64,000 bases of DNA from Deltaproteobacteria bacterium (GTDB taxonomy: Bacteria > Desulfobacterota > GWC2-55-46): positions 48,367-112,366 of the forward strand of contig JACPGB010000047.1 in the NCBI GenBank assembly GCA_016182655.1, read 5' to 3'. Below the pieces are notes generated by a model. The model was not told the origin of the DNA, ran no database searches, and worked only from the letters and a program-made list of their open reading frames with translations. This document shows, one piece after another, positions 48,945 through 61,468 of the stretch; within the stretch, counting starts at the first letter, position 1; the number at the start of each line of letters is the position of its first letter. Position numbers and translations under genes: made by a program.

Positions 48945-49574
48945 TTATTTTTCGAAGAGGCTCTTCATTATGGTTATGACGTTCTTCTTGAAGTCCTCCA
49001 TGTCGTGGCCCGCGGCGTGCGGGTTCGTCATTATGTTCCCGGCTATCACCACAGTCGGCGTTTCCTCTATCCTGTACTCTTGCGCCATATCAAGCGCCTT
49101 CTGAGCCTCCCTCGCCTTCTCGCCGCCCCTGAGCTTCCTGCTAAAGTCAAAGCCGAGCCCGACCCTGGCGGCCAGAGCTTCGAGCACCTCGACACTTCCT
49201 ATGTCTTTTTTCTCTACGAAGTTCGCGTTAAAGAGCGCCTTCTTCATCTCCTCGCCCTTTCCGGCGTCTACAGCGATCAGGTACGCCTCTCCGGGTTTCG
49301 AGGAGCCCTGCCCCCAGTAGAGCGGGACTATCTTCCACTTGACCTTCTTCGGAAAATTCCCCTTTATCGCCGGTATCGCCTTTTCGAACTGATAGCAGTG
49401 GTCGCAATAAAAACTCAGGAACTCGACCACCTCGACGGTCTTGCCGTCGAACCTGAACTCCTTGCCCGGGACCTGCGTGAAACTCCCCTTTATTGTCGCG
49501 GGTGTCCCTGCCGCGATGGCGGCAAGGGGCAGGAAGAGTATTATGGCTATTGCGATTAGTGACTTTTTTATCAT
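48945..49574 (-). CDS. DsbA-family thiol:disulfide oxidoreductase
   Basis: Signal peptide and a CDHC active site. Confidence 0.7.
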   Translation of the reverse strand: MIKKSLIAIAIILFLPLAAIAAGTPATIKGSFTQVPGKEFRFDGKTVEVVEFLSFYCDHCYQFEKAIPAIKGNFPKKVKWKIVPLYWGQGSSKPGEAYLIAVDAGKGEEMKKALFNANFVEKKDIGSVEVLEALAARVGLGFDFSRKLRGGEKAREAQKALDMAQEYRIEETPTVVIAGNIMTNPHAAGHDMEDFKKNVITIMKSLFEK

Positions 49575-49584
49575 ACGGATCTCC

Positions 49585-50874
49585 TTAGTGTATTATCTTT
49601 TCCCTGTAGCGCTCGTAATCGAACTCGGGGCTGTTCTCTTTTGTGTGGCACTTGAGGCATACGGTCTCATCAACAGGGCCGGACGGCGCGGAAAAACCCC
49701 TGGCGTGGTCCTTGCCCGGGCCGTGGCAGACCTCGCACTGCACTCCGGCAAGCCCCGGTGTCGCTACCCTGTTTTTGAACCCGCCCTCGGTCCCATAGCC
49801 GGTCGTGTGGCAGACTATGCACTCGGGGTCTTTCGATTTCCCGACCCTTTCAAGCGTATCAAAAGCCTTTGCGTGTTTTGTCGCGGACCAGGACTCGAAG
49901 AACGGCTCGTGGCACTCTATGCAGGAAGCGGCTCCGAGCCAGGGGCCGGAGAGCTCCATCTTCTTTTCTTCGTCTTTAGTAAGCTCGGCGACCTTCGCGT
50001 CGTACTCTTTCAATACCTCCCTCACCCGCGCGTCCTCTGTGACATCCTTGCCGAGCGACTGCCACCTCTGGTCGAAGGACGACACCCTGCCCTTTTCGTC
50101 GAGCCTGAGAGAGAGGATGCCGAGCTTCTCGCCCTTGGGGTAGCCGGAGACGACGATTGCGCCCTTGTCCCTCACTACCCCGTCGATCTCCTCGCCGGAC
50201 GATGTTATCACGACATCCCACCCCTTGGCCGCGGCATCTTTTACGAATCTACCCGTAAGGAGGATGTTCAGCATCCCCTTTTTAACGGACTTCGGGTCGA
50301 TACTGATGTTTATCCTGATCGGGCCGCGCTCGACGACGACGGAGCGGCTTTTGCCCTTGAGGGATGAGACTGCCCTGAGGTTTTTTTCCTTGATGGCGGG
50401 CTCGATAAATTCAGGGAGCTCAAAAAACGCCGCGGCGTCATACCCGATGACCCCGAAAGACTTGACGAGCGCCTCTGACTTCAGTCTCCCCTGCGGCGTA
50501 TCGGTCGCAAGCGAGTTACCCGCGTCGGCCAATACGAAAGGCTCGAGATTTTGTCTCTCCGAGTTTATAAATCCGGATAGCCGCGCAAGCCCGCCCGACT
50601 GCGTCTCCGGGGCGCACCCGCAAGGCTCGAGCTCCCCCCTCATCGCGCCGGTATAGAGTATGTTCAATACCCTTTCATCGGCCACGGCCGGAAGCGGCGC
50701 AAGCGCGAATAAAAAAAGGGCCGCCAGACAAAGCAAGGCTCTCAGGGGATCTATAATGAGAAGAGACGGCCTGTTCGCGGGCGCTCGCTCGAACGGATAA
50801 ACGGGGGTGTTTGCCGGAAGGCCCGGATGACCGGGCTCGGGCGTGGACGGGTAATCTGCAATACTGCGCCTCAT
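49585..50874 (-). CDS. Tetraheme c-type cytochrome with a large N-terminal non-heme domain
   Basis: Four CxxCH motifs (CIECH, CIVCH, CEVCH, CLKCH) in the C-terminal 110 aa. Signal peptide. The N-terminal roughly 300 aa are of unknown fold. Confidence 0.7.
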   Translation of the reverse strand: MRRSIADYPSTPEPGHPGLPANTPVYPFERAPANRPSLLIIDPLRALLCLAALFLFALAPLPAVADERVLNILYTGAMRGELEPCGCAPETQSGGLARLSGFINSERQNLEPFVLADAGNSLATDTPQGRLKSEALVKSFGVIGYDAAAFFELPEFIEPAIKEKNLRAVSSLKGKSRSVVVERGPIRINISIDPKSVKKGMLNILLTGRFVKDAAAKGWDVVITSSGEEIDGVVRDKGAIVVSGYPKGEKLGILSLRLDEKGRVSSFDQRWQSLGKDVTEDARVREVLKEYDAKVAELTKDEEKKMELSGPWLGAASCIECHEPFFESWSATKHAKAFDTLERVGKSKDPECIVCHTTGYGTEGGFKNRVATPGLAGVQCEVCHGPGKDHARGFSAPSGPVDETVCLKCHTKENSPEFDYERYREKIIH

Positions 50875-50933: not shown

Positions 50934-52031
<1,098 letters not shown>

Positions 52032-52039
52032 CTATGGGC

Positions 52040-52531
52040 CTATTGCCCCTTGGCTATTTTCTTTACGAATACCTCGCCGGTCGCCGTCATGAACATGACC
52101 TTCCGGCCGAATACGCCGCCCGTGTCCCTGCTCAACGTTACTATCCTGCTCTCCGAAAGGGACTCCTCGGCGAGCGCTATGTTACGGTCTCCGACGTTCA
52201 GGAGCCCGCTCGTGCTCTCGAGGATGTTCCCCCCTCCGAACACCTTTGCCCTGATGTTGCCCTTGATCGAGCCGAGGGAGAGCATCTTCTCTATGAGCAT
52301 CGGTATCGCGACGTTCCCGTACTTAGGCGTCCGGAGCCCCTCGCCGTTCCAGAAGGGCAGGAGAAAGTGGTTCATGCCCCCTCTCCTGAGTATCGGGTCC
52401 CAGAGGCATACCGAGACGCAGGAGCCGAGGACCGTCGAGATGATGGACTCGCCGGTCTCGGCGAATATCATGCCGGGGTAGAGGAAATGGGCGTTCGCGG
52501 CCTTCGCATTCACAACGCTCTCCATGCTCAT
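52040..52531 (-). CDS. cheD: Chemoreceptor glutamine deamidase CheD (copy 2)
   Basis: 163 aa with the CheD family motif (VLGSCVSVCLWD). The ATG overlaps the upstream kinase stop (TGATG). The ORF-track ORF 52040..53227 is an out-of-frame artefact. Confidence 0.8.
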   Translation of the reverse strand: MSMESVVNAKAANAHFLYPGMIFAETGESIISTVLGSCVSVCLWDPILRRGGMNHFLLPFWNGEGLRTPKYGNVAIPMLIEKMLSLGSIKGNIRAKVFGGGNILESTSGLLNVGDRNIALAEESLSESRIVTLSRDTGGVFGRKVMFMTATGEVFVKKIAKGQ

Positions 52532-53433
52532 CAGAACCTCTCGCCGTCTGTTCCGAAGAAGAACTCGTTGCCGTCGACGGAGAAGACCGTCGCCTCCTCC
52601 CCGGCCATCTCGGGGACCGTGACCGTGAATACGGCGCCCGCGCCTTTTTTGGAGACGACCGAGATAGCGCCGCCCAGGAGCTCGAGCGTCGACTTGATTA
52701 TCGAGAGCCCGAGCCCGTGCCCGCCGTGGTGCTTGGTCGAGCCGGCCTCCAGCTGGCGGAACCTCTCGAAGACCGCCCCCTGGTCCCGCTCTTCCATGCC
52801 GATACCGTAATCGGCGACCGAGACGGAGAGCTCGCCACCGTCCTTCCACGCCTTGATCGTCACGGGCCTCTCCTCGTAGCTGAACTCTATGGCGTTTGCA
52901 AGCAGGTTCGCAAGCACGCACTGGAGCTTTTCCGGGTCGGTCCTGAAGAAGTGGTTCCTGACCGCATCGGTCAAGGTAGTGGAGACGGTTATCTTCTTTT
53001 CCGCGGCCCTGTGCCGGAAGGCTTCCACGGTGCTTTTCATGAGGGTCGCCATGTCTATCGCGGAAACGCTCAAAACGCTTTCGCCCGCCTCGAGTTCGGC
53101 GGCGGCGAAGATGTTCCGTAGCTGGTAATTCAGGCTGAAGGCCTCTTTCCGGATGGTCCCGACGAGCGAGCGGCATGTCTCCGCGTCGAGGTCCATGGGG
53201 CCGTCGGTTGAAAGTATCAGCTCGCACATGGTGAGGACCGAGGTCAGCGGGTTGTTTATCTCGTTCCTTATGTTCGAGAGGAAGTGGCTCTTTACCTTCT
53301 CGGACTCAAGGAGCCTCTCGTTCAGGGACGCGAGCTTTCTGGTCATCGCGGTGAGGTCGTGGCAGGCCTTGTCCTTGGCCTTGAGCCTCCGCATGAGCTC
53401 GTTTATTATCTCCTCGTCGCGATACCTGTCCAT
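52531..53433 (-). CDS. Cytoplasmic sensor-less histidine kinase (coiled coil + HisKA + HATPase_c)
   Basis: H-box KSHFLSNIRNEINNPL and G-boxes (DYGIGM, GGHGLGL). No TM helix and no REC domain. Confidence 0.8.
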   Translation of the reverse strand: MDRYRDEEIINELMRRLKAKDKACHDLTAMTRKLASLNERLLESEKVKSHFLSNIRNEINNPLTSVLTMCELILSTDGPMDLDAETCRSLVGTIRKEAFSLNYQLRNIFAAAELEAGESVLSVSAIDMATLMKSTVEAFRHRAAEKKITVSTTLTDAVRNHFFRTDPEKLQCVLANLLANAIEFSYEERPVTIKAWKDGGELSVSVADYGIGMEERDQGAVFERFRQLEAGSTKHHGGHGLGLSIIKSTLELLGGAISVVSKKGAGAVFTVTVPEMAGEEATVFSVDGNEFFFGTDGERF

Positions 53434-53456
53434 GGAGCCTCCTCGTATATTCGCTT

Positions 53457-54005
53457 TTAATCGTAATTTCCGACGAGGGCGGCTCCCTCGTCCGTTGTCG
53501 TCCTCTGGATGGTCCGCACTATCGCCTGGCCGGTGTGCGTAAGATAGAGGACCTTCCGCGCCTTGTCCCCGCCGGTATCCGAGTCGACGACCCGGACCCC
53601 GCGCCTCTTGAGGGCGGAATGCGCGGCGAGCGCGTTCTTGGCCCCGATCGAGGCGGCCCCCCTCGTGTCAGTAAAAGCGGCGCCCCCGAAGACCTTTGCT
53701 TCGAGCCGGGAGGGCCCGGCCCCGTGCTCCTCGAACCTCCGGAGCATGAGCTGGACGGAGCCGTCGACGAATATCATGGCGTCCCGCTCTTCCATCGAGC
53801 AGGAGGAACACTCAAACGCGCACTTTGTCATCGGGCGCGGCAGGAGGGCATGGCAGATGGCCCCGGCCCGCAGAGCCGGAGAGTGGATGAGTACCGCGAT
53901 GCAGGAACCGAGGACCGTGCGTACGGCGGAGGGCCTGATGCTGAAAAAAAGCTCCCCGGGACTGAGATAGACGAGCGGGATGCCTTCGGGAACGTATATG
54001 CGCAC
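53457..54005 (-). CDS. cheD: Chemoreceptor glutamine deamidase CheD (copy 1)
   Basis: 182 aa with the CheD family motif (VLGSCIAVLIH). Confidence 0.8.
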   Translation of the reverse strand: MRIYVPEGIPLVYLSPGELFFSIRPSAVRTVLGSCIAVLIHSPALRAGAICHALLPRPMTKCAFECSSCSMEERDAMIFVDGSVQLMLRRFEEHGAGPSRLEAKVFGGAAFTDTRGAASIGAKNALAAHSALKRRGVRVVDSDTGGDKARKVLYLTHTGQAIVRTIQRTTTDEGAALVGNYD

Positions 54006-54006
54006 G

Positions 54007-54861
54007 TCACACCTTTCTGTACACCGATGGCGCCGCCTTCTCGAACGGGAGGTCGAGCCCGGAGAGCGTCTCCGAGTGCCCTATGAAAAGGTAGCTCCCG
54101 GCGTGCATGCACTGGGAGAACTTGTAAAAAAGCCTCTCCTGGGTCTCTTTGTCAAAATATATGATGACATTCCTGCAAAAAATAATATCGAGGTCCCTGA
54201 ACGGAAACTCGTTGTCCATGAAATTAAGCCTCTGGAGGTGGAGACGGGCCCTTAGCTCCGGAGACATCCTCACGAGCCCCTTTGCCGCGTCCCTGCTCCT
54301 TAATACATACTTTTTTCTGAGCTCCATCGGCACGGGCTCGATCCTCTCTTCCTTATAGATGCCTTTTTGGGCCATGGAGAGGACCCTTGTCGAGATGTCG
54401 GTACAGGATATCCTGAAGTCGAACCCAAGGCCCGAGTTAGCGCACGCGAACTCCGAGAGCGTCATTGCAATGGTGTACGGCTCCTCGCCGGTCGAGCATC
54501 CCGCGGACCAGACGGTAAGCGGTGAACCGAGCCCCGCCCTACGGCTGTTTACGAGCTCCGGGACCGCCGTGTTGGAGAGGTACTCGAAGTGGAACGACTC
54601 GCGGAAAAAATCGGTCTTGTTCGTAGTGACGAGGTCTATCATGTGGACGAGCTCCTCGTCCGCGCCGGCGGGGCTGAAGACGAAGTCGATATATTCCCGG
54701 AAGCCTCTGAGCCCGAGCGCGCGGAGCCTCTTCTGGAGCCTGGATTCCAAGAGCGCCTTTTTCACCGGGGGCATCTTTATCCCGAGCTCCTTTTGTATGA
54801 AGGCGCTAAGGGCCTGGAACGCCTTGTCGTCCATCCGGACCGAACCGATGATGCCTGTCAT
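54007..54861 (-). CDS. cheR: Chemotaxis protein methyltransferase
   Basis: SAM-binding motifs (VWSAGCSTGEEPYT). Confidence 0.9.
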   Translation of the reverse strand: MTGIIGSVRMDDKAFQALSAFIQKELGIKMPPVKKALLESRLQKRLRALGLRGFREYIDFVFSPAGADEELVHMIDLVTTNKTDFFRESFHFEYLSNTAVPELVNSRRAGLGSPLTVWSAGCSTGEEPYTIAMTLSEFACANSGLGFDFRISCTDISTRVLSMAQKGIYKEERIEPVPMELRKKYVLRSRDAAKGLVRMSPELRARLHLQRLNFMDNEFPFRDLDIIFCRNVIIYFDKETQERLFYKFSQCMHAGSYLFIGHSETLSGLDLPFEKAAPSVYRKV

Positions 54862-54923
54862 ATGAATGCCTTATCGATAATTAAAGGGCTCCGGGGGGCT
54901 TTTGCCCCCCGGAGGACCGCCGC

Positions 54924-55418
54924 TTATGCCGCCGGGGCCTTGGCCTCGTGGACCTCGAGGAGCTCCTCTGTCGAGAATATCCTGTCGATCTCGAGGATTA
55001 TGATGAACTGGTCGTCACGCTTGCCCATGCCCTTGATGAACTCGGTATTCAGCCTCGTCCCTATCCTCGGGGCCGGCTCTATCTGGCCCGGCTCGAGCTC
55101 TATGACCTCCTGGACGGAATCGGCCAGGGCCCCGAGCACGAGCTTGTCCCCGTCGAGATTTATTTCCGCTATTATGATGCAGGTGTTCACGGTCTGCTCG
55201 GTCCTGGACATGTTGAACTTAAGGCGCATGTCGACTACCGGCACTACGGACCCGCGAAGGTTTATGACTCCCCTCATGAAGTCCGGGGTCCTCGGGACTT
55301 TCGTGAGCGCCGTAAAATCGAGGACCTCCCTCACCTTGGTGATGTCGAGGGCGAAGACCTCCGTCGCGAGCTTGAAAGTCAGGTACTGCGTGGTCTCTGT
55401 TATGGCGGCAACACTCAT
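54924..55418 (-). CDS. cheW: Chemotaxis coupling protein CheW
   Basis: Start at MSVAAI, with an AAGGAGGG RBS 8 nt upstream. The ORF-track start at 55466 overlaps the MCP and is rejected. Confidence 0.85.
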   Translation of the reverse strand: MSVAAITETTQYLTFKLATEVFALDITKVREVLDFTALTKVPRTPDFMRGVINLRGSVVPVVDMRLKFNMSRTEQTVNTCIIIAEINLDGDKLVLGALADSVQEVIELEPGQIEPAPRIGTRLNTEFIKGMGKRDDQFIIILEIDRIFSTEELLEVHEAKAPAA

Positions 55419-55431
55419 CTGGAAGCCCTCC

Positions 55432-57138
55432 TTAATATTTGACGAACTCGGTCTCTTCCTCGTCACCCGCGTCGAGGTTCAAGGCGACCCCGCTGTTCGC
55501 GGCCGCCTTGGCGTGCTTCGCATGAGCGGAAGGCGCGGCTTCCCTTGCGTGAACGGCCTTGGCCTTGGGCGCCGGCTTTGCCCCGCCCTTGACCACCTTT
55601 AGCTGTCTCGTCGCCTGCTGTAAGCCGGAGTCCGATATCCTGAAGAAGGCTATCGCCGACTGGAGCTGTTCGGCCTGCGAGGAGAGCTCCTCCGAGGTAG
55701 ATGCGAGCTCCTCGGCCGCGCCCGCGTTCTGTTGTATGACCTGGTCGAGCTGCTGTAGCGCCCTGTTTATCTGTTCGGCGCCGCTGTTCTGCTCGCCGCT
55801 CGCGGCCGTTATCTCCTGGACGAGCTCCGAGGTCTTCTGGATGTCTGGTACGAGCTTCGCGAGCATCTCCCCGGCTTTTTCCGCGATTTGCACGCTGGTC
55901 GAGGAGAGCTGGCTTATCTCGCCCGCCGCGGTCTGGGACCTTTCGGCGAGCTTCCTTACTTCAGAGGCCACGACGGCAAACCCTTTGCCGTGCTCGCCGG
56001 CCCTTGCGGCCTCTATCGCGGCGTTCAGCGCAAGCAGGTTCGTCTGCCTCGCGATCTCCTCGATGATCGATATCTTGGACGCTATCTCCTTCATGGCGTT
56101 TACGGTCTCCGCGACCGCCTGGCCGGACTCTCTGGCGTCGGACGCCGACTTGTTCGCTATCTTTTCCGTCTGCTGGGCGTTATCCGAGTTCTGCTTGATG
56201 TTAGAGGTCATCTCCTCCATGGAAGACGAGGTCTCCTCGATGGAGGCCGCCTGCTCGGTCGCGCCGTGGGATATCTGCTGTGCCCCGGAGGAGAGCTCCT
56301 GGCTCCCGCCCGCGACATTGTCGGATACGGTACGGACGTCCGTCACGACCCCGCGTAGCTTCTCCACCATGTTCTTCATGGCGGCCATGAGCTGGCCGGT
56401 CTCATCCTTGCCCCTGACCTCTATCTCCATCGTCAGGTCTCCTATTGCGAGCTTGTTCGCGACGTTCGTCGTGAGGTCCGAAAGAGGCTTTGCTATGAGC
56501 TTGGTCAAGAGCATGACGGCCGCTATGGCGACGGCCATCGCAAGGACCGTCGCGCCTATTACGATATTTCTCGTCATGATGTAGTCGTCATTTGCCTCGT
56601 TAAAGAGCTGTTTGCCTACCTCGTCCTGTATCTCGATGAGCCTCTGGGATTTCTGGTCGACTATCGTGAACTTTGGGCCCGCGTCATTGGCGGCGTTGTA
56701 CCTGGCCTGGTCGAACTTTCCTTCGAGCGCCCATTTGTAGGTGTTGAGCCTGGAATCGTTATAGGCCCTCCATGCCGGACGGAACTCGGAGAGGACCTTT
56801 TCCTCCTCGGGCACCAGCGTCGTCGCGGCGTACTTCTCAATCAGGTTGTCTATCTCCTTTTCGCTCTCGGAAGCATCGTTGAAGATGGCCTGGCGCTTTG
56901 GCGCATCCTGCTCATTTATTATCTTCAGCGCGCCCATCCTTATATTGGCAAGCTCCATGTTGATCTTGCCGAGGTCGACGACAGGCACGAACCTGTCTGC
57001 GTAAAGCGACTGTAGATTGCTCTTCATGTCCATTATCCTGTTGATGCTCAACCCCCCGAGCAGCATGACGAAGACCACGACAAGGGCGAAGCTAACGGTC
57101 AGTTTGGAGCTCGTTTTCATGTCTCTGAAGAAATTCAT
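55432..57138 (-). CDS. Methyl-accepting chemotaxis protein (TM-periplasmic 4HB-like-TM-HAMP-MA)
   Basis: Conserved MA signalling domain ([33 protein letters not shown]). Confidence 0.9.
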
Positions 57139-57244
57139 CTTTCCCTCCGCTTGGTTATGTTGATCATTTTTTCCTCCCTAAAGCTGTCTCTGAAGTCCGT
57201 GCCTATCATTCCGGCGGCGCGTCTTTTGTCATTGCGTCCTCCGT

Positions 57245-59404
57245 TCAGGCTGCCGCCCGTTCAACGGCCTCGATGAGCCGCGGGATGTCGAGTATTAGCG
57301 CGACTTCGCCGTTCCCCATTATCGTTGCCCCGGATATGCCCTTTATCTCTTTGTACGCCTTGGAGAGCGACTTGATGACGGTCTGGACCTCGCCGAAGAG
57401 CTCATCCACTACAAGCCCTATCTTCGCCGAGCCGTACCTTACTATGATGATGTTCTCGTACCTGGCGTCCTTGCCTTCAAGCCCGAAGTAGCGTTTAAGC
57501 CTTACGTACGGCAGGACCTCGCCCCTCAAGTTTATGTAGCTACTCCTGTTGCCTTCCCTCTCGGATTCCGGGAGCTCCACGCATTCCACGACCATGTCGA
57601 GCGGTATTACGTACGAAGACCCGGCTACCCCGACCCTGAAGCCGTCGATGATGGCGAGCGTTAGTGGTAGCCTTATGCGGACGACCGTGCCAGAGCCTTC
57701 AACGCTCTCGACATCGACCGACCCGCGTAGCGCTTCGATGTTCCTTTTGACCACGTCCATGCCGACACCCCTGCCCGAGAGCTTGGTGACGGATTCGGCG
57801 GTCGAGAAGCCCGGCTCGAATATGACGCGGAATATCTCGGAGTCCGAGTACTGCTGACCGGGGGCGAGGAGCCCCTGTCCGATGGCCTTCTCCAGTATCC
57901 TCTTTTTATTGAGCCCCCTGCCGTCGTCGGTTATCTCGATCGTTATCGAGCCCGCGTCGTGGAAGGCGTTAAGCCTTATCGTCCCAATAACGGGCTTTCC
58001 AGCGGAGGCGCGCGCCTCCGCCTTCTCGATCCCGTGGTCTGCCGCGTTTCTCACTATGTGCATGAGCGGATCGCTTATTTTTTCGACCACCGTCTTGTCG
58101 AGCTCGGTCTCTCCGCCTTTTATCTCGAGCGCAATCTCCTTGCCCGTATCCCTGCTTATGTCGCGGACTACCCTGTTGAACCTGCTGAAGGTCTCGCCGA
58201 TGGGGACCATCCTTATCTTCATCGAAGTGTCCCTTATCTCCTCGACGAGCCTCAGCATGGATGAGGCGGACTCAAGGAGCCACGCGTCCTTTACCCTTTG
58301 CGCCTGCTGGTCGATGTTGGCGCTTGCTATGACGAGCTCTCCGACGAGGTTTATGAGCCCGTCAAGCTTGTCGGCGTCGACGCGGATGGTCCGCGCCTCC
58401 TTAGACCTCGTCTCCTGTGTCTTCTTCTGCTTTTCGAGCGCGGCGTCGACTATGTCGGATTGGACCATCCCCTCGGTCACGAATATCTCGCCTATGAGGC
58501 GTTTGGAGCCGTCGGAGGCGGCCTCCGAGGACTTCTGTAGCGAGAGCGCCTCATCGAGCTCTGTCTTCGTAAGAGCCCCGCCCTTTACGAGTATCTCTCC
58601 CAAAAGGACCGTATCCTCGGGAAGGTCCCTTATGAGGTCCACGTAGGACTCGACCCTGCTGTGCGGCGGGAGTATCGCTATCATGCAGTCCTCGCGGACG
58701 AACTCGAATACGCCCTCGATCGCTTTTTTGTCGAAGTCGCTCTTGAAGTCGATCTCGAATCCGAGATAACAGGTCTCGGGGTCCATATCCTCAACGCCCG
58801 GTATCGAATCGAAGAGTGTCGATATCGAGATTATCTCGCCGAGCTTTCCGAGGTACGAGATGAACGAGGCCGGGTCCATGCCGGAGCGGAGCACATCCGG
58901 GCCGAACCGCAGCGATATGTGCCATGCGTCCGTCGAAGACAACCTGCCGGACTCAGGCGTATCCGTAACCGGGCCTTTAACGGCGCGCTTCTCCGGGACC
59001 TCCTCCTTTTTCACGAGAAGGGCCGAGAGCCTCTCGGTCAGGCCCGCTTCCTTGATCTCGGTAAGGGCAGGGACAGCGGCGTCCGAGGCCGCGAGCTCTA
59101 TAAGCGTCTTCGTGTGGTCCCTGCACTCGAGGAGGAGCTCGATCGTCGCGCTCGTTAACGTGAACGCGCCGTCGCGGACATTGGAGAGGAGGTTTTCGAC
59201 GAGATGGGTGAACTTCTCGACCGTCTCCATCCCGAGTATCCCGGAGGCGCCCTTTATCGTATGGGCCGACCTGAAGAGCGAGTTTATCGTGTCGGCGTCA
59301 CCCGGGTTTTTTTCGAGGGAGAGAAGCACGTTCTCCATCTCCTCCAGGAGCTCCGCGCTCTCAGTCATGAATGTCTGCCTTGCCTGCCCTAACTCGATGT
59401 CCAT
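57245..59404 (-). CDS. cheA: Chemotaxis histidine kinase CheA (Hpt-P2-dimerisation-HATPase-CheW-like)
   Basis: Hpt HTIKGASG motif. Confidence 0.9.
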   Translation of the reverse strand: MDIELGQARQTFMTESAELLEEMENVLLSLEKNPGDADTINSLFRSAHTIKGASGILGMETVEKFTHLVENLLSNVRDGAFTLTSATIELLLECRDHTKTLIELAASDAAVPALTEIKEAGLTERLSALLVKKEEVPEKRAVKGPVTDTPESGRLSSTDAWHISLRFGPDVLRSGMDPASFISYLGKLGEIISISTLFDSIPGVEDMDPETCYLGFEIDFKSDFDKKAIEGVFEFVREDCMIAILPPHSRVESYVDLIRDLPEDTVLLGEILVKGGALTKTELDEALSLQKSSEAASDGSKRLIGEIFVTEGMVQSDIVDAALEKQKKTQETRSKEARTIRVDADKLDGLINLVGELVIASANIDQQAQRVKDAWLLESASSMLRLVEEIRDTSMKIRMVPIGETFSRFNRVVRDISRDTGKEIALEIKGGETELDKTVVEKISDPLMHIVRNAADHGIEKAEARASAGKPVIGTIRLNAFHDAGSITIEITDDGRGLNKKRILEKAIGQGLLAPGQQYSDSEIFRVIFEPGFSTAESVTKLSGRGVGMDVVKRNIEALRGSVDVESVEGSGTVVRIRLPLTLAIIDGFRVGVAGSSYVIPLDMVVECVELPESEREGNRSSYINLRGEVLPYVRLKRYFGLEGKDARYENIIIVRYGSAKIGLVVDELFGEVQTVIKSLSKAYKEIKGISGATIMGNGEVALILDIPRLIEAVERAAA

Positions 59405-59415
59405 TTAAGCGTTCC

Positions 59416-59730
59416 TTATCTGTTGTGGTCTGCGGAGCAGTTCAGGTATTCGCCGACGGAGAAGAGGTCTATCACCGCACGGGCGGCCTCCGAGGCGTTC
59501 ACGATTGAAAACGCCCTGCCCGAGGCCTCGGCCTCTCTCTTGGCGAGCAACAGCAGTTGAAGCCCCGTAGTGTCCAATTCGGTTGCGCCCGAGAGGTCGA
59601 TTTGAAGCGGCTCATGGCGCGCAAGCGCCTCAACGACGCCTTTTTTAAGGTCAAGGGCGTGGTATATGTTCATCTCCCCGGTTACGAGCGCGGTACAGAG
59701 GCCGTCCTTGTTTTCGTGCTTTATTTCCAT
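59416..59730 (-). CDS. STAS-domain protein (anti-sigma-factor antagonist-like)
   Basis: Start at MEIKHENKDG. SpoIIAA-like fold pattern. Confidence 0.6.
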   Translation of the reverse strand: MEIKHENKDGLCTALVTGEMNIYHALDLKKGVVEALARHEPLQIDLSGATELDTTGLQLLLLAKREAEASGRAFSIVNASEAARAVIDLFSVGEYLNCSADHNR

Positions 59731-59740
59731 TTTCCCTCCG

Positions 59741-60109
59741 TCACGGCACGATGAGCTTCGAGATCGCCTCAAGCATCTGCTCGGGCTTGAAGGGCTTCAC
59801 GACCCATGCCTTTGCCCCGGCCATCTTGCCTTCCTGCTTTTTATTCTCCTGCGACTCGGTCGTGAGCATGATGACCGGCGTGAACCTGTAGGATGTGTTC
59901 GTCTTCACGTTCTTCAAAAAAGAGATGCCGTCCATGTTCGGCATATTTACGTCGCAGATCATGAGGTTTATCTTCTGCCCCTGGAGCTTGGAGATAGCGT
60001 CCTGCCCGTCGCAGGCCTCGATGACGTCGTAACCCGCCTTCTTGAGCGTCAGGTTGACGACCTGCCTTATCGAGGCCGAATCGTCTATCACCATGATAGT
60101 CTTTGCCAT
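59741..60109 (-). CDS. cheY: CheY-like single-domain response regulator
   Basis: 122 aa with D10, the D53 region (MICDVNMP) and K105 conserved. Confidence 0.85.
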   Translation of the reverse strand: MAKTIMVIDDSASIRQVVNLTLKKAGYDVIEACDGQDAISKLQGQKINLMICDVNMPNMDGISFLKNVKTNTSYRFTPVIMLTTESQENKKQEGKMAGAKAWVVKPFKPEQMLEAISKLIVP

Positions 60110-60130
60110 TTGCCGTTCCTCCCTGGTTCG

Positions 60131-61468
60131 TTAAAAAAATGTCACGTCGCTCTGAGCCACCTTCGGCGTTGCCTTCCCCTTCGCGGCCTTGTTGCCTCCG
60201 GCAACGACCTCGAGATGGACCGACCTCTGGCGCTCCATGACGTAATACTTCTTGATGTCCTCTATGTCGAACTCCGCCGTCCTGCACTCGCCTACGCAGG
60301 CCGCGTCCTCCTTCATGCACTCCTGGAGGCTTACTATGAAGGCGTCGGTGTCGTTGATGGTCCGTATGACGAGCTCTATCTGCTGGCGGACGATGTCCTG
60401 GAACTGCACATTGGCGAGGAGCTCCGTCACTTCCCGCGCCACCTCGTCGCTCGATATCGAAACATGGCCGAGTACCTCGTGGTTCAGCCTGTCGAGTTCC
60501 TTATAGCTCCCGCCGAGCCTGGCGAGCTGGCTTTCGAGCGAGAGGAGCATCGAGCTCTCGTCGCTACCCGCCTTCTGGTTGAGCTTTACCGCGAACTTCT
60601 CCTCTATCTCCCCGGCCATCTCGTTCATCGCGTGCCCTATTTTCGTTGCGGCCGCGTCGGACTGCGTGGAGAGTTTTCTCACCTCCTGGGCTACTATCGC
60701 GAAACCCCTGCCGTGCTCTCCGGCTCTCGCCGCCTCTATGGCGGCGTTCAGCGCCAGCAGGTTCGTCTGGTCGCTTATTTCCTTCAGAAGCTCGACGAAC
60801 CTGGTCATGGAGCGGGCCTTCTCCGCGAGCGCCAGCACCGTCTTGTAGTCCTTGTCCACTTCCTGGAGGCGCCTGTCTATGTACTTGCGGAGATCCGCTA
60901 TCGTCTCCTCGTTCGCCGCAATCGTCTCATTGGACTCAGCGGCGAGCGCCTCGCTCTGGCCCTGGAGCTCCCTTATCGTCGACTGCATCGAGGTCATCGA
61001 GGAGTCGATCTCCTGGGACTGGGCTATTATCCTGTTCGCCGCCTCCGCTGTCTCATCCACTATCTGGTTCAGATGGCCGTTCGTGAGCTTGTTTATGTCG
61101 TGCTGTGTGTTGAAGAACCTCTCGACCTTCGCCTCGCGGTTGCGGTGGTGGACACTGCCTTGCGTGAACTCCTCGACGAGCTCCGTCTCGGATTCGGCGA
61201 TGTCAGGAAGCGGCCTCCTCGCCCATTTTACGCTCAAGCCCTGGATGATGACGGCTCCGGTCACGAGCCATAACGCGCCTTCGATCGCCCTCGCGTACCT
61301 CCCTGTCAGAAACCCTCCGAGGAGTTCATTTATATGGTCCAGGAGGAAGAGTTCGATTACGACCGATGCCGCGAGCGCGGCGAGCGTGGATTTAAAAAGT
61401 ATCCGCCTGTACGCCGGGATATACAGGAAGAGGAACTGGTCGGATCTTTTTTTGGCGGCTGATGTCAT
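60131..61468 (-). CDS. Methyl-accepting chemotaxis protein (two TM helices, short periplasmic loop)
   Basis: MA domain ([33 protein letters not shown]). Confidence 0.85.

What the first reader, a model, noticed from the sequence alone, without database searches (positions are those of the whole stretch)
52040..54005. Sensor-less cytoplasmic histidine kinase translationally coupled to a second CheD
The kinase stop codon overlaps the CheD2 start (TGATG) by one nucleotide. CheD1 ends 23 nt before the kinase start. The kinase has only a coiled coil plus HisKA/HATPase. Its H-box is atypical: NEINNPL instead of the usual ELRTPL. The ORF track missed CheD2 as such and reported a 395-aa out-of-frame artefact instead. 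The two CheD copies are divergent, about 35% identical by eye, so this is an old duplication and not a recent one.
Basis: seen in the sequence. Interest (0 to 1): 0.5.

Follow-up and report, generated by a model that had tools for sequence, protein, structure and literature searches.

The report
Histidine-less kinase paired with CheD
The "histidine kinase" wedged between two CheD genes has an asparagine where its phosphorylated histidine should be, and this kinase-dead protein plus the CheD gene after it form a conserved, apparently undescribed two-gene module found in chemotaxis gene clusters of several bacterial phyla.

Summary
The coordinates, the TGATG stop/start overlap and the 23-nt spacer are all correct. 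The gene order on the minus strand is CheR-CheD1-HK-like-CheD2-CheB, inside an 11-gene che operon.

The atypical H-box has no histidine: Asn57 sits at the phospho-acceptor position.

- **Asn57 is conserved.** It is present in 120/120 close homologues and in 111/113 representatives at 32-51% identity. No other histidine is conserved.
- **Other motifs are kept.** The nucleotide-binding boxes and the HisKA phosphatase determinant (E58-x-x-N61, the same ExxN form used by CheC/CheX) are near-invariant.
- **The pairing is near-obligate.** A CheD gene follows the pseudokinase in 80/80 genomic loci. The pseudokinase precedes 70/73 CheD2-clade genes in metagenomes.
- **CheD2 is specialised.** It belongs to a distinct CheD clade (WNGxG motif) with an intact catalytic triad.
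- **CheD1 is the extra copy.** It is lineage-specific and only 29% identical to CheD2.

Best reading (inferred): a kinase-dead, phosphatase-competent partner for CheD that plays the role CheC plays in Bacillus.

I found no description of the module in the searchable literature. Verdict: a new variant of known kinds (pseudo-histidine kinase; CheD partner system).

The parts
53457..54005 (-). CheD1: a lineage-specific, divergent CheD (182 aa, GTG start 1 nt after the CheR stop). Catalytic Thr/Cys/His are present. It carries a CxxxCxxC insertion (KCAFECSSC).
   Evidence: Pfam PF03975 77 bits. Aligns to T. maritima CheD 2F9Z with GSC and His conserved. Nearest relatives outside its lineage are <=44% identical. 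The insertion is conserved in L001, L015 and P0121.
53434..53456 (-). 23-nt spacer between the CheD1 stop (TAA) and the pseudokinase ATG, containing GGAGG 5 nt before the ATG.
   Evidence: Read directly from the sequence.
52531..53433 (-). Pseudo-histidine kinase (psHK), 300 aa: N-terminal helix (aa 6-45) continuous with DHp helix 1, then DHp helix 2, a CA (ATP-binding) domain and a disordered C-terminal tail.
   Evidence: Pfam HisKA 30.8 bits and HATPase_c 87.1 bits. AF2 mean pLDDT 80.6. Best PDB fold matches are the pseudokinase DivL (4q20) and HK853-RR468 complexes. A 99%-identical protein occurs in an independent assembly (P0001).
53245..53283 (-). Degenerate H-box FLSNIRNEINNPL (aa 51-63). 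Asn57 (codon 53265-53263) replaces the phospho-acceptor His. E58-x-x-N61 is the retained phosphatase motif.
   Evidence: Alignment to HK853 'FIANISHELRTPL' and GacS. N57 is present in 120/120 homologues and 111/113 representatives. E58 is 109/113, N61 110/113, P62 113/113.
52609..52938 (-). CA domain (aa 166-275) with N-box N176/N180, G1 D208-x-G-x-G, F-box F222-x-R-F and G2 G238-H-G-L-G-L-S.
   Evidence: Conservation across 113 representatives: N176 112, N180 113, D208 104, G210 112, G212 108, G238/G240/G242 113.
52555..52575 (-). Conserved short motif DGNEFFF (aa 287-293) in the disordered C-terminal tail. The protein usually ends in Phe.
   Evidence: G288 84, N289 81 and F293 102 of 113. 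pLDDT is below 50 for aa 280-300.
52529..52533 (-). TGATG: the psHK stop and the CheD2 start share one nucleotide.
   Evidence: Read from the sequence. The same 1-nt overlap occurs in L001, L003, L015, L042, L060 and L063. Most other loci have spacings from -4 to about 60 nt.
52040..52531 (-). CheD2: the psHK-partner CheD (163 aa). Catalytic Thr33, Cys38 (52420-52418) and His55 (52369-52367). Clade-specific WNGEGLRTPKYGN motif (aa 61-73, 52351-52313) directly after the catalytic His.
   Evidence: Pfam PF03975 90.5 bits. Aligns to 2F9Z. T33/C38/H55 are 81/81 in partner CheDs. WNGxG is in 79/80 partner CheDs versus 5/116 generic CheDs.
54007..54861 (-). CheR methyltransferase, immediately upstream.
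   Evidence: Pfam CheR 191 bits and CheR_N.
50934..52022 (-). CheB methylesterase (REC + CheB_methylest), starting 17 nt after the CheD2 stop.
   Evidence: Pfam.
54924..61468 (-). Upstream part of the same operon: MCP (61468-60131), CheY (60109-59741), STAS protein (59733-59416), CheA (59404-57245), 4HB-MCP (57138-55432), CheW (55466-54924).
   Evidence: Pfam and NCBIfam.

Best explanation
**What is shown.**
- The middle gene encodes a pseudo-histidine kinase (psHK): a sensor-less DHp+CA protein that cannot autophosphorylate on the canonical site, because that site is an invariant Asn.
- psHK and the CheD gene immediately downstream (CheD2) form a conserved, co-translated two-gene cassette.
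- The cassette is found in F7-like che operons (usually CheR-psHK-CheD-CheB), at the head of a second type of che cluster, or standing alone.
- It occurs in records titled Deltaproteobacteria, Nitrospirota (several named as magnetotactic Candidatus taxa), Magnetococcales, Rokubacteria and Bacteroidota.

**How it most likely works (inferred).**
- psHK keeps a nucleotide-binding CA domain and the helix-borne acid/amide pair E58-x-x-N61. In HisKA kinases (H-E/D-x-x-T/N), and in CheX/CheC (ExxN), this pair positions the water that hydrolyses the aspartyl-phosphate of receiver domains.
- I therefore propose that psHK is a dedicated binder/phosphatase of a phosphorylated receiver (CheY~P, CheB~P or CheV~P) that works in complex with CheD.
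- This would make it a non-homologous replacement for CheC in the CheC-CheD-CheY~P feedback loop, linking response-regulator phosphorylation to the availability or activity of CheD at the receptors.
- In the window's lineage, the extra CheD1 would be the ordinary receptor deamidase, sitting in the CheR-CheD-CheB position.
For: **Shown here.**
- His to Asn at the acceptor site. This is invariant in 120/120 homologues and 111/113 distant representatives.
- No conserved alternative His.
- E58, N61 and P62 are near-invariant.
- N/G1/F/G2 boxes are conserved.
- DHp+CA fold, with the best structural matches to the pseudokinase DivL and to HK853 bound to its regulator.
- CheD follows psHK in 80/80 loci. 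psHK precedes 70/73 CheD2-clade genes. Spacing is tight or overlapping.
- Partner CheDs form a distinct clade with an intact catalytic triad.
- A REC-domain gene (CheB, CheY, CheV, REC-DUF4388) is directly adjacent to the pair in at least 80 of 149 loci.
- No CheC/CheX/CheZ family appears among the families hit by 3 or more of 136 unassigned ORFs around these clusters.
- Two-CheD arrangements recur independently (window/L001/L015, L105, L121), which argues that the partner CheD is not redundant with a canonical CheD.

**From the literature.**
- In CrdS/HK853 the H+4 Asn/Thr is required only for phosphatase activity. The His is largely dispensable (H371A half-life 2.6 versus 0.7 min). N375D is dead. 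CheX/CheC use ExxN (PMC3510030).
- CheD's main role in B. subtilis is binding CheC and receptors under control of CheY~P (PMC3513319).
Against: - No biochemical or structural evidence that psHK binds CheD or any receiver. Adjacency shows functional linkage, not the mechanism.
- 44 of 149 loci are standalone with no REC gene nearby. In Nitrospirota taxa named as magnetotactic, the pair lies between dnaN and gyrB.
- If only phosphatase activity mattered, strong conservation of the ATP-binding boxes and of Asn57 itself would not obviously be needed.
- The absence of CheC/CheX elsewhere in these genomes was not tested.
- Inter-protein covariation was uninformative.
- A complex prediction could not be run.
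Confidence: 0.4

Rival explanations
1. psHK is a substrate or pseudo-substrate of CheD. Its DHp four-helix bundle would mimic the helical bundle of chemoreceptors. CheD2 would bind, and possibly deamidate, one of the invariant amide residues (N57, N61, Q104, N107), switching psHK between states or simply titrating CheD away from receptors.
For: - Near-obligate gene pairing.
- The CheD2 catalytic triad is invariant, so catalysis is under selection.
- The clade-specific WNGxGL motif sits right after the catalytic His.
- The DHp helices carry an unusual set of invariant amide/acid residues: N38, E45, N57, E58, N61, E97, Q104, N107, E115.
- CheD recognises helix-borne Gln and binds a receptor-mimicking helix of CheC (PMC3513319).
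- A CheD-fold enzyme, NTAN1, deamidates Asn (PMC7022378).
Against: - N57, N61, Q104 and N107 are essentially never encoded as D/E in 113 representatives. Q/E interchange is, from general knowledge, typical of receptor deamidation sites.
- By inspection of the psHK sequence I saw no match to the receptor A/S-x-x-Q/E-Q/E-x-x-A/S consensus (consensus recalled from memory).
- CheD is known to act on Gln, not on internal Asn.
Confidence: 0.2
2. psHK is still an active ATP-dependent kinase that phosphorylates something other than its own H-box His. The target could be CheD2, the operon's STAS protein (as SpoIIAB/RsbW-type GHKL kinases do) or another partner. Alternatively, psHK could be an ATP/ADP sensor that gates CheD.
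For: - Nucleotide-binding residues are conserved across the family.
- There is a weak match to HATPase_c_2, the anti-sigma kinase type (29.7 bits versus cutoff 27.4).
- A STAS gene sits in the same operon and in 19 related loci.
Against: - The STAS gene belongs to the che-cluster type, not to the cassette. It is absent around standalone pairs.
- SpoIIAB-type kinases lack a DHp domain, whereas here the degenerate H-box is the most conserved segment of the protein.
- The N-box+3 Lys that aligns with HK853 K383 (a nucleotide-phosphate contact, from memory) is Glu in 64/113 members.
Confidence: 0.15
3. One reading: psHK is an ordinary (if atypical) sensor-less histidine kinase that autophosphorylates on a histidine, for example H50 two helical turns above the canonical site, and feeds a response regulator.
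For: - Pfam calls HisKA and HATPase_c above threshold.
- H50 lies 7 residues upstream of position 57, so it is on the same helix face (sequence).
- Rare family members carry His at position 57 (P0260, L086).
Against: - H50 is His in only 25/121 and 31/113 members.
- No His column is conserved above 79%.
- Asn57 is invariant, which indicates selection for Asn rather than drift.
Confidence: 0.04
4. Artefact or decay: a frameshift, a sequencing error or a degenerating pseudogene produced the odd H-box and the overlapping ORFs.
For: None beyond the oddity of the 395-aa overlapping ORF.
Against: - There are full-length 99%, 91% and 85% identical proteins in independent assemblies.
- The family contains hundreds of members with the same length and motif.
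- The 395-aa ORF is only an upstream over-extension of the CheD2 frame.
Confidence: 0.01

Closest known systems
CheC-CheD (with CheY~P) adaptation module of Bacillus subtilis / Thermotoga maritima
   Same: A CheD deamidase is encoded next to, and (here by inference) works with, a partner that carries a helix-borne Glu-x-x-Asn pair of the kind used to dephosphorylate CheY~P. The module sits among the adaptation genes (CheR, CheB).
   Different: The partner has a DHp+CA histidine-kinase fold, not the CheC/CheX/FliY fold. It also carries a conserved nucleotide-binding domain. No CheC Pfam family was detected in the clusters examined. Binding and phosphatase activity are untested.
DivL of Caulobacter crescentus (pseudo-histidine kinase, Tyr in place of His; PDB 4q20)
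   Same: It has a DHp+CA architecture with the phospho-acceptor His naturally replaced. It is the best structural match to the AF2 model. DivL works by binding a phosphorylated receiver (DivK~P) rather than by phosphotransfer (bioRxiv 10.1101/812529 abstract; plus general knowledge).
   Different: DivL has sensor (PAS) domains and a Tyr. It acts in cell-cycle control and has no link to CheD or chemotaxis. psHK is sensor-less, has Asn, and is locked to CheD.
Bifunctional HisKA kinases such as CrdS, HK853 and EnvZ in their phosphatase mode
   Same: The same domain family and the same H+1 acid and H+4 Asn/Thr, with Pro at H+5. The phosphatase function of these kinases largely survives loss of the His (PMC3510030).
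   Different: These kinases retain the His and act as kinases. psHK has lost it in essentially every member and has no input domain.
CheD of ancestral F7 chemosensory clusters (V. cholerae cluster III, P. aeruginosa Che2)
   Same: The operon layout STAS/CheY/CheA/CheW/MCP/CheR/CheD/CheB resembles the stage-1 F7 cluster (PMC7184735). CheD lies between CheR and CheB.
   Different: In the described F7 clusters no kinase-like gene precedes cheD. Here psHK is inserted in front of it, and the CheD belongs to a separate clade (WNGxG).

Membership tests
HisKA-type (class I) histidine kinase | DHp (HisKA) dimerisation helical hairpin | tested here: met
   Pfam HisKA 30.8 bits versus cutoff 26.9. AF2 helices 6-74 and 84-116. 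Foldseek matches to HK853 and DivL.
HisKA-type (class I) histidine kinase | Phospho-accepting histidine in the H-box | tested here: not met
   Asn57 aligns with HK853 His260 and the GacS His. Asn is present in 120/120 and 111/113 family members. No conserved alternative His.
HisKA-type (class I) histidine kinase | CA domain with N, G1, F and G2 boxes | tested here: met
   HATPase_c 87 bits. N176/N180/D208/G210/G212/G238/G240/G242 are conserved. Family-specific changes: N-box+3 Lys to Glu in 64/113, and G2 Thr to His.
HisKA-type (class I) histidine kinase | ATP-dependent autophosphorylation and transfer to a receiver | not testable with these tools
   Needs a [gamma-32P]ATP assay.
HisKA phosphatase-competent DHp (H-E/D-x-x-T/N) | Acidic residue at H+1 and Thr/Asn at H+4 followed by Pro | tested here: met
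   E58 109/113, N61 110/113, P62 113/113. The functional meaning comes from PMC3510030.
CheD (PF03975) chemoreceptor glutamine deamidase | CheD domain above the Pfam threshold | tested here: met
   CheD1 77 bits and CheD2 90.5 bits versus cutoff 25. Both fall below all NCBIfam equivalog cutoffs.
CheD (PF03975) chemoreceptor glutamine deamidase | Catalytic Thr/Cys/His triad (T. maritima T21/C27/H44) | tested here: met
   Alignments to 2F9Z. T33/C38/H55 are 81/81 in the partner clade. The triad definition is from PMC7022378.
CheD (PF03975) chemoreceptor glutamine deamidase | Deamidation of receptor Gln residues | not testable with these tools
   The window MCP (57138-55432) has EQ pairs, e.g. 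ATEQAAS. Activity needs an assay.
CheC/CheX/FliY phosphatases | CheC-type fold (Pfam CheC/CheX) | tested here: not met
   psHK matches only HisKA/HATPase families. It is therefore an analogue at most, not a member.
CheC/CheX/FliY phosphatases | Helix-borne E-x-x-N active-site pair | tested here: met
   E58-I-N-N61 is invariant. The motif definition is from PMC3510030.
CheC/CheX/FliY phosphatases | Physical binding to CheD and to CheY~P | not testable with these tools
   Only gene adjacency is available.
Natural pseudo-histidine kinases (DivL-like) | DHp+CA protein whose acceptor His is replaced, with the replacement conserved across orthologues | tested here: met
F7 chemosensory class | Gene order STAS-cheY-cheA-cheW-MCP-cheR-cheD-cheB | tested here: inconclusive
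   The order is similar (PMC7184735). Class assignment by CheA/CheW/MCP class HMMs was not done.
SpoIIAB/RsbW-type GHKL serine kinases | Stand-alone HATPase_c_2 domain without DHp, with a STAS substrate | tested here: not met
   A DHp is present. The HATPase_c_2 match is marginal (29.7 versus 27.4 bits) and lies under the stronger HATPase_c hit. STAS is absent from standalone cassettes.

The most novel reading that the evidence does not exclude
CheD2 is an enzyme that acts on the pseudokinase itself. It would deamidate the invariant Asn57 (or Q104/N107) of the degenerate H-box. This would create an Asp/Glu at the former phospho-acceptor site and irreversibly or conditionally switch psHK activity. 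That would be a new kind of post-translational control of a two-component-type protein, and the first non-receptor substrate of CheD.
Probability: 0.07. Interest if true: 0.9.

Novelty: new variant of a known kind. Interest (0 to 1): 0.64.

Why it matters
To my knowledge, what CheD does in CheC-less chemosensory systems such as the F7-like clusters is unresolved.

- **A candidate missing partner.** A widespread kinase-dead DHp-CA protein that is almost never separated from a dedicated CheD clade offers a concrete partner and a directly testable model: a CheC-like phosphatase/sequestration loop built from a histidine-kinase scaffold.
- **A new pseudokinase family.** It adds a large, cleanly defined family (more than 110 clusters at 50% identity) to the short list of natural bacterial pseudo-histidine kinases. 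The replacement residue (Asn) is under strict selection.
- **An annotation problem.** Public annotation calls these proteins 'HAMP domain-containing histidine kinase'. That name is misleading (no HAMP domain was detected and no histidine is present) and inflates counts of two-component kinases.

Tried and rejected
1. **Alternative phospho-acceptor His (H50 or elsewhere).** Rejected. H50 is variable, and no His column exceeds 79% conservation.
2. **Frameshift or artefact.** Rejected. Near-identical full-length proteins occur in other assemblies, and the 395-aa ORF is an in-frame over-extension of CheD2.
3. **A conserved CheD-HK-CheD triad.** Rejected. Among the loci fetched, an upstream CheD in this position occurs only in the window's own lineage (L001, L015 and the metagenomic L081), plus two unrelated two-CheD layouts.
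4. **Tandem duplication origin of the two CheDs.** Not favoured. CheD1 is nearer to generic CheDs than to the CheD2 clade.
5. **HAMP domain, as in NCBI names.** None detected by Pfam.
7. **Inter-protein covariation (MI with APC; 134 pairs, Neff about 97).** The top pairs only reflect the split into two subfamilies (FLSNIRNEINNPL versus FISNITNEI[IV]NPF). Uninformative.
8. **Literature searches for a CheD-associated His-less kinase.** Four searches found nothing. The library covers only open-access papers.
9. **Match of psHK helices to the receptor methylation-site consensus.** None seen by inspection.
10. **CheC/CheX/CheZ among unassigned ORFs near the clusters.** Not among the families hit by 3 or more of 136 ORFs. 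This is a weak negative, because only the top 25 families are listed and whole genomes were not searched.
Full report
**1. What is in the sequence**

All genes in the region are on the minus strand and are tightly packed. The order is:
- MCP (61468-60131)
- CheY (60109-59741)
- a STAS/anti-sigma-antagonist-like protein (59733-59416)
- CheA (59404-57245)
- a 4HB-type MCP (57138-55432)
- CheW (55466-54924)
- CheR (54861-54007)
- CheD1 (54005-53457)
- a 300-aa HisKA+HATPase_c protein (53433-52531)
- CheD2 (52531-52040)
- CheB (52022-50934)

- The kinase-like gene's TGA and the CheD2 ATG share one base (TGATG at 52533-52529), with GAGAGG upstream.
- The CheD1 stop lies 23 nt before the kinase-like ATG, and that spacer contains GGAGG.
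- The '395-aa artefact' (53227-52040) is the CheD2 reading frame extended to an upstream GTG. It is in frame with CheD2 and out of frame only relative to the kinase-like gene.
- CheD1 and CheD2 are 29% identical over 157 residues.

**2. The key correction: there is no H-box histidine**

phmmer alignments to solved kinases place 'KSHFLSNIRNEINNPL' against HK853 'KTEFIANISHELRTPL' and GacS 'KSEFLANMSHEIRTPL'. The phospho-acceptor position is therefore Asn57.

This is a family trait, not an accident of this genome.
- In 120 homologues (46-99% identity), position 57 is Asn in all, and FLSNI[RK]NEINNPL is essentially invariant.
- In 113 representatives of 50%-identity clusters (32-51% identical to the query), Asn57 is present in 111, with one His and one Cys.
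- His50, two turns upstream, varies (S/N/H/D/Q).
- No column of the family alignment is His in more than 79% of members.
- The long proteins in the representatives list are ordinary hybrid kinases with SHE[IL]RTP[LM].

The rest of the kinase core is under selection.
- E58 (109/113), N61 (110/113) and P62 (113/113) are conserved.
- The nucleotide-binding residues N176, N180, D208, G210, G212, G238, G240 and G242 are conserved.

AlphaFold2 gives a standard DHp hairpin plus CA domain, preceded by a roughly 45-residue helix and followed by a disordered tail (mean pLDDT 80.6). The best PDB matches are the pseudokinase DivL and HK853-RR468 complexes. No sensor or HAMP domain is detected. The protein is best described as a pseudo-histidine kinase (psHK).

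**3. The conserved unit is psHK + CheD, not CheD-HK-CheD**

- A scan of species-representative genomes found 383 relatives. In all 80 loci retrieved, a CheD gene lies immediately downstream on the same strand. Spacing is mostly -4 to about 60 nt, and the identical 1-nt overlap occurs in six loci.
- The reverse test used an alignment of these partner CheDs against metagenome contigs. It returned 80 loci, and psHK is directly upstream in 70 of the 73 that have room. This count includes L127, which the script flagged as absent although a psHK ORF ends just upstream of the CheD match. The exceptions are L138, L141 and L157.
- The partner CheDs form a clade of their own. They average 55% mutual identity versus 35% to generic CheDs. 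They carry a WNGxG motif right after the catalytic His in 79/80 members, versus 5/116 generic CheDs. The T/C/H catalytic triad is invariant.
- An upstream CheD in this position exists only in the window's own lineage: L001 at 85% psHK identity ('Deltaproteobacteria bacterium GWB2_55_19'), L015 at 71%, and the metagenomic L081. Its nearest outside relatives are at most 44% identical.
- Two other, unrelated layouts also contain a generic CheD in addition to the psHK partner: L105 (CheR-CheD-CheB-CheV-psHK-CheD) and L121. This suggests that the partner CheD is not simply redundant with a receptor-modifying CheD.

**4. Genomic contexts**

- The commonest context is MCP-CheY-STAS-CheA-MCP-CheW-CheR-psHK-CheD-CheB. 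This order resembles the ancestral 'stage 1' F7 cluster described by Ortega et al. (PMC7184735), with psHK inserted before cheD.
- A second context, in Nitrospirota, puts the pair at the head of a cluster: psHK-CheD-(REC-DUF4388)-CheY-CheW-MCP-CheA-CheW-CheW-CheB.
- In 44 of 149 loci the pair stands alone. In Ca. Magnetobacterium casense and Ca. Magnetominusculus xianensis it lies between dnaA-dnaN and gyrB-gyrA.
- Taxa, as named in the record titles, include Deltaproteobacteria MAGs, Nitrospirota, Magnetococcales, Rokubacteria and Bacteroidota. The Bacteroidota hits include the isolate Rhodocytophaga aerolata.
- A receiver-domain gene (CheB, CheY, CheV or REC-DUF4388) directly flanks the pair in at least 80 loci.
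- Among 136 unassigned ORFs in or around these clusters, no CheC/CheX/CheZ family is hit by three or more members. MotA/MotB, PilZ and STAS do appear.

**5. How it most likely works**

Shown: psHK cannot use the canonical histidine. It retains a nucleotide-binding domain. It also retains the H+1 Glu and H+4 Asn.

Established knowledge:
- The His is largely dispensable (CrdS H371A).
- N375D abolishes phosphatase activity.
- CheX/CheC use the same ExxN device, and CheZ and HisKA_3 kinases use DxxxQ (PMC3510030).
- In B. subtilis, CheD functions mainly by binding CheC and receptors. CheY~P strengthens the CheC-CheD interaction, and CheD stimulates CheC's phosphatase activity (PMC3513319).

Inference: psHK is a kinase-dead, phosphatase- or RR~P-binding-competent scaffold that partners with a dedicated CheD. 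It would provide CheC-like feedback in clusters where no CheC was seen. The fact that N61 is almost never Asp (2/113) fits the amide requirement.

I put about 0.4 on this specific mechanism. I put more than 0.9 on the descriptive statement that this is a conserved pseudokinase-CheD cassette.

**6. Rivals**

- **(a) psHK as a CheD substrate or pseudo-substrate.** The DHp bundle is rich in invariant amides (N38, N57, N61, Q104, N107). CheD acts on helix-borne Gln, and the CheD-fold enzyme NTAN1 deamidates Asn (PMC7022378). However, these positions are never encoded as acids, and I saw no match to the receptor consensus.
- **(b) An ATP-dependent kinase or ATP sensor acting on another target (CheD, STAS).** This is favoured by the conserved ATP site. 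It is weakened because STAS is not part of the cassette, and because the degenerate H-box is the most conserved segment of the protein.
- **(c) An ordinary histidine kinase, or (d) an artefact.** Both are rejected by the conservation data.

**7. Novelty**

NCBIfam has no specific model for either protein; all matches fall below the equivalog cutoffs. NCBI names family members 'HAMP domain-containing histidine kinase'. Four full-text searches found no description of a CheD-linked, His-less kinase, with the caveat that only open-access literature is searched.

Pseudo-histidine kinases (DivL) and CheD partner systems (CheC) are both known kinds. This is a new combination and a new, large family, so I rate it 'new variant of a known kind'.

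**8. Limits**

- No protein-protein evidence could be generated.
- Chemosensory class assignment was not done.
- Genome-wide absence of CheC was not tested.

Noticed in passing
window 53457-54005 (minus), about aa 61-69 of CheD1: CheD1 carries a Cys-rich insertion with CxxxCxxC spacing (KCAFECSSC) just after the catalytic His. It is conserved in its own small lineage (L001 RCAFECTSC, L015 ACTGECGSC, P0121, P0122) and absent from the rest of the 120 listed CheD1 homologues (P0123-P0240). It could be a metal or Fe-S site.
   Followed up: partly
window 59416-59733 (minus): A STAS (anti-sigma-factor-antagonist-like) gene sits between CheY and CheA. It is present at the same place in 19 related loci and echoes the ancestral F7 cluster layout (PMC7184735).
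   Followed up: partly
L013 10001-11404; L017 10001-11364: In Ca. Magnetobacterium casense and Ca. Magnetominusculus xianensis (Nitrospirota), the psHK-CheD pair is inserted between dnaA-dnaN and gyrB-gyrA, with no che genes within 10 kb.
   Followed up: partly
window 52555-52575 (minus), aa 287-293 of psHK: There is a conserved short motif DGNEF[FL]F in the disordered C-terminal tail, and the protein usually ends in Phe. It looks like a docking peptide for an unknown partner.
   Followed up: no
window 54889-54914 (minus): A strong 11-bp, GC-rich hairpin (CTCCGGGGGGC-AAAA-GCCCCCCGGAG) lies in the 62-nt CheW-CheR gap. It could be an attenuator or RNA-stability element separating the signalling genes from the adaptation genes (CheR-CheD1-psHK-CheD2-CheB).
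   Followed up: no
psHK aa 183 and 239 (window 52885-52887 and 52717-52719): The N-box+3 Lys that aligns with HK853 K383 is Glu here and in 64/113 family members (Lys in 29). The G2 box reads G-H-G-L-G-L-S where canonical kinases have Thr, with the His present in 89/113. Nucleotide handling may therefore differ from canonical kinases.
   Followed up: partly
P0260; L086 2094-3005: Rare family members carry His at position 57 (FLSNI[KR]HEINNPL) while still sitting in front of a CheD (L086). They could be revertants or relics of the ancestral kinase.
   Followed up: no
L099, L103, L107, L122-L125 and others: A second psHK subfamily has the H-box FISNITNEI[IV]NPF. Asn57, Glu58 and Asn61 are kept, while R56 becomes T, N60 becomes I/V and L63 becomes F.
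   Followed up: partly
window 48945-50874 (minus): Directly downstream of CheB lie a 429-aa protein with C-terminal multihaem cytochrome domains (Cytochrome_C554/c7) and a DsbA-like thioredoxin-fold protein. VKOR, cytochrome c and thioredoxin-fold families recur among unassigned ORFs around related che clusters.
   Followed up: no
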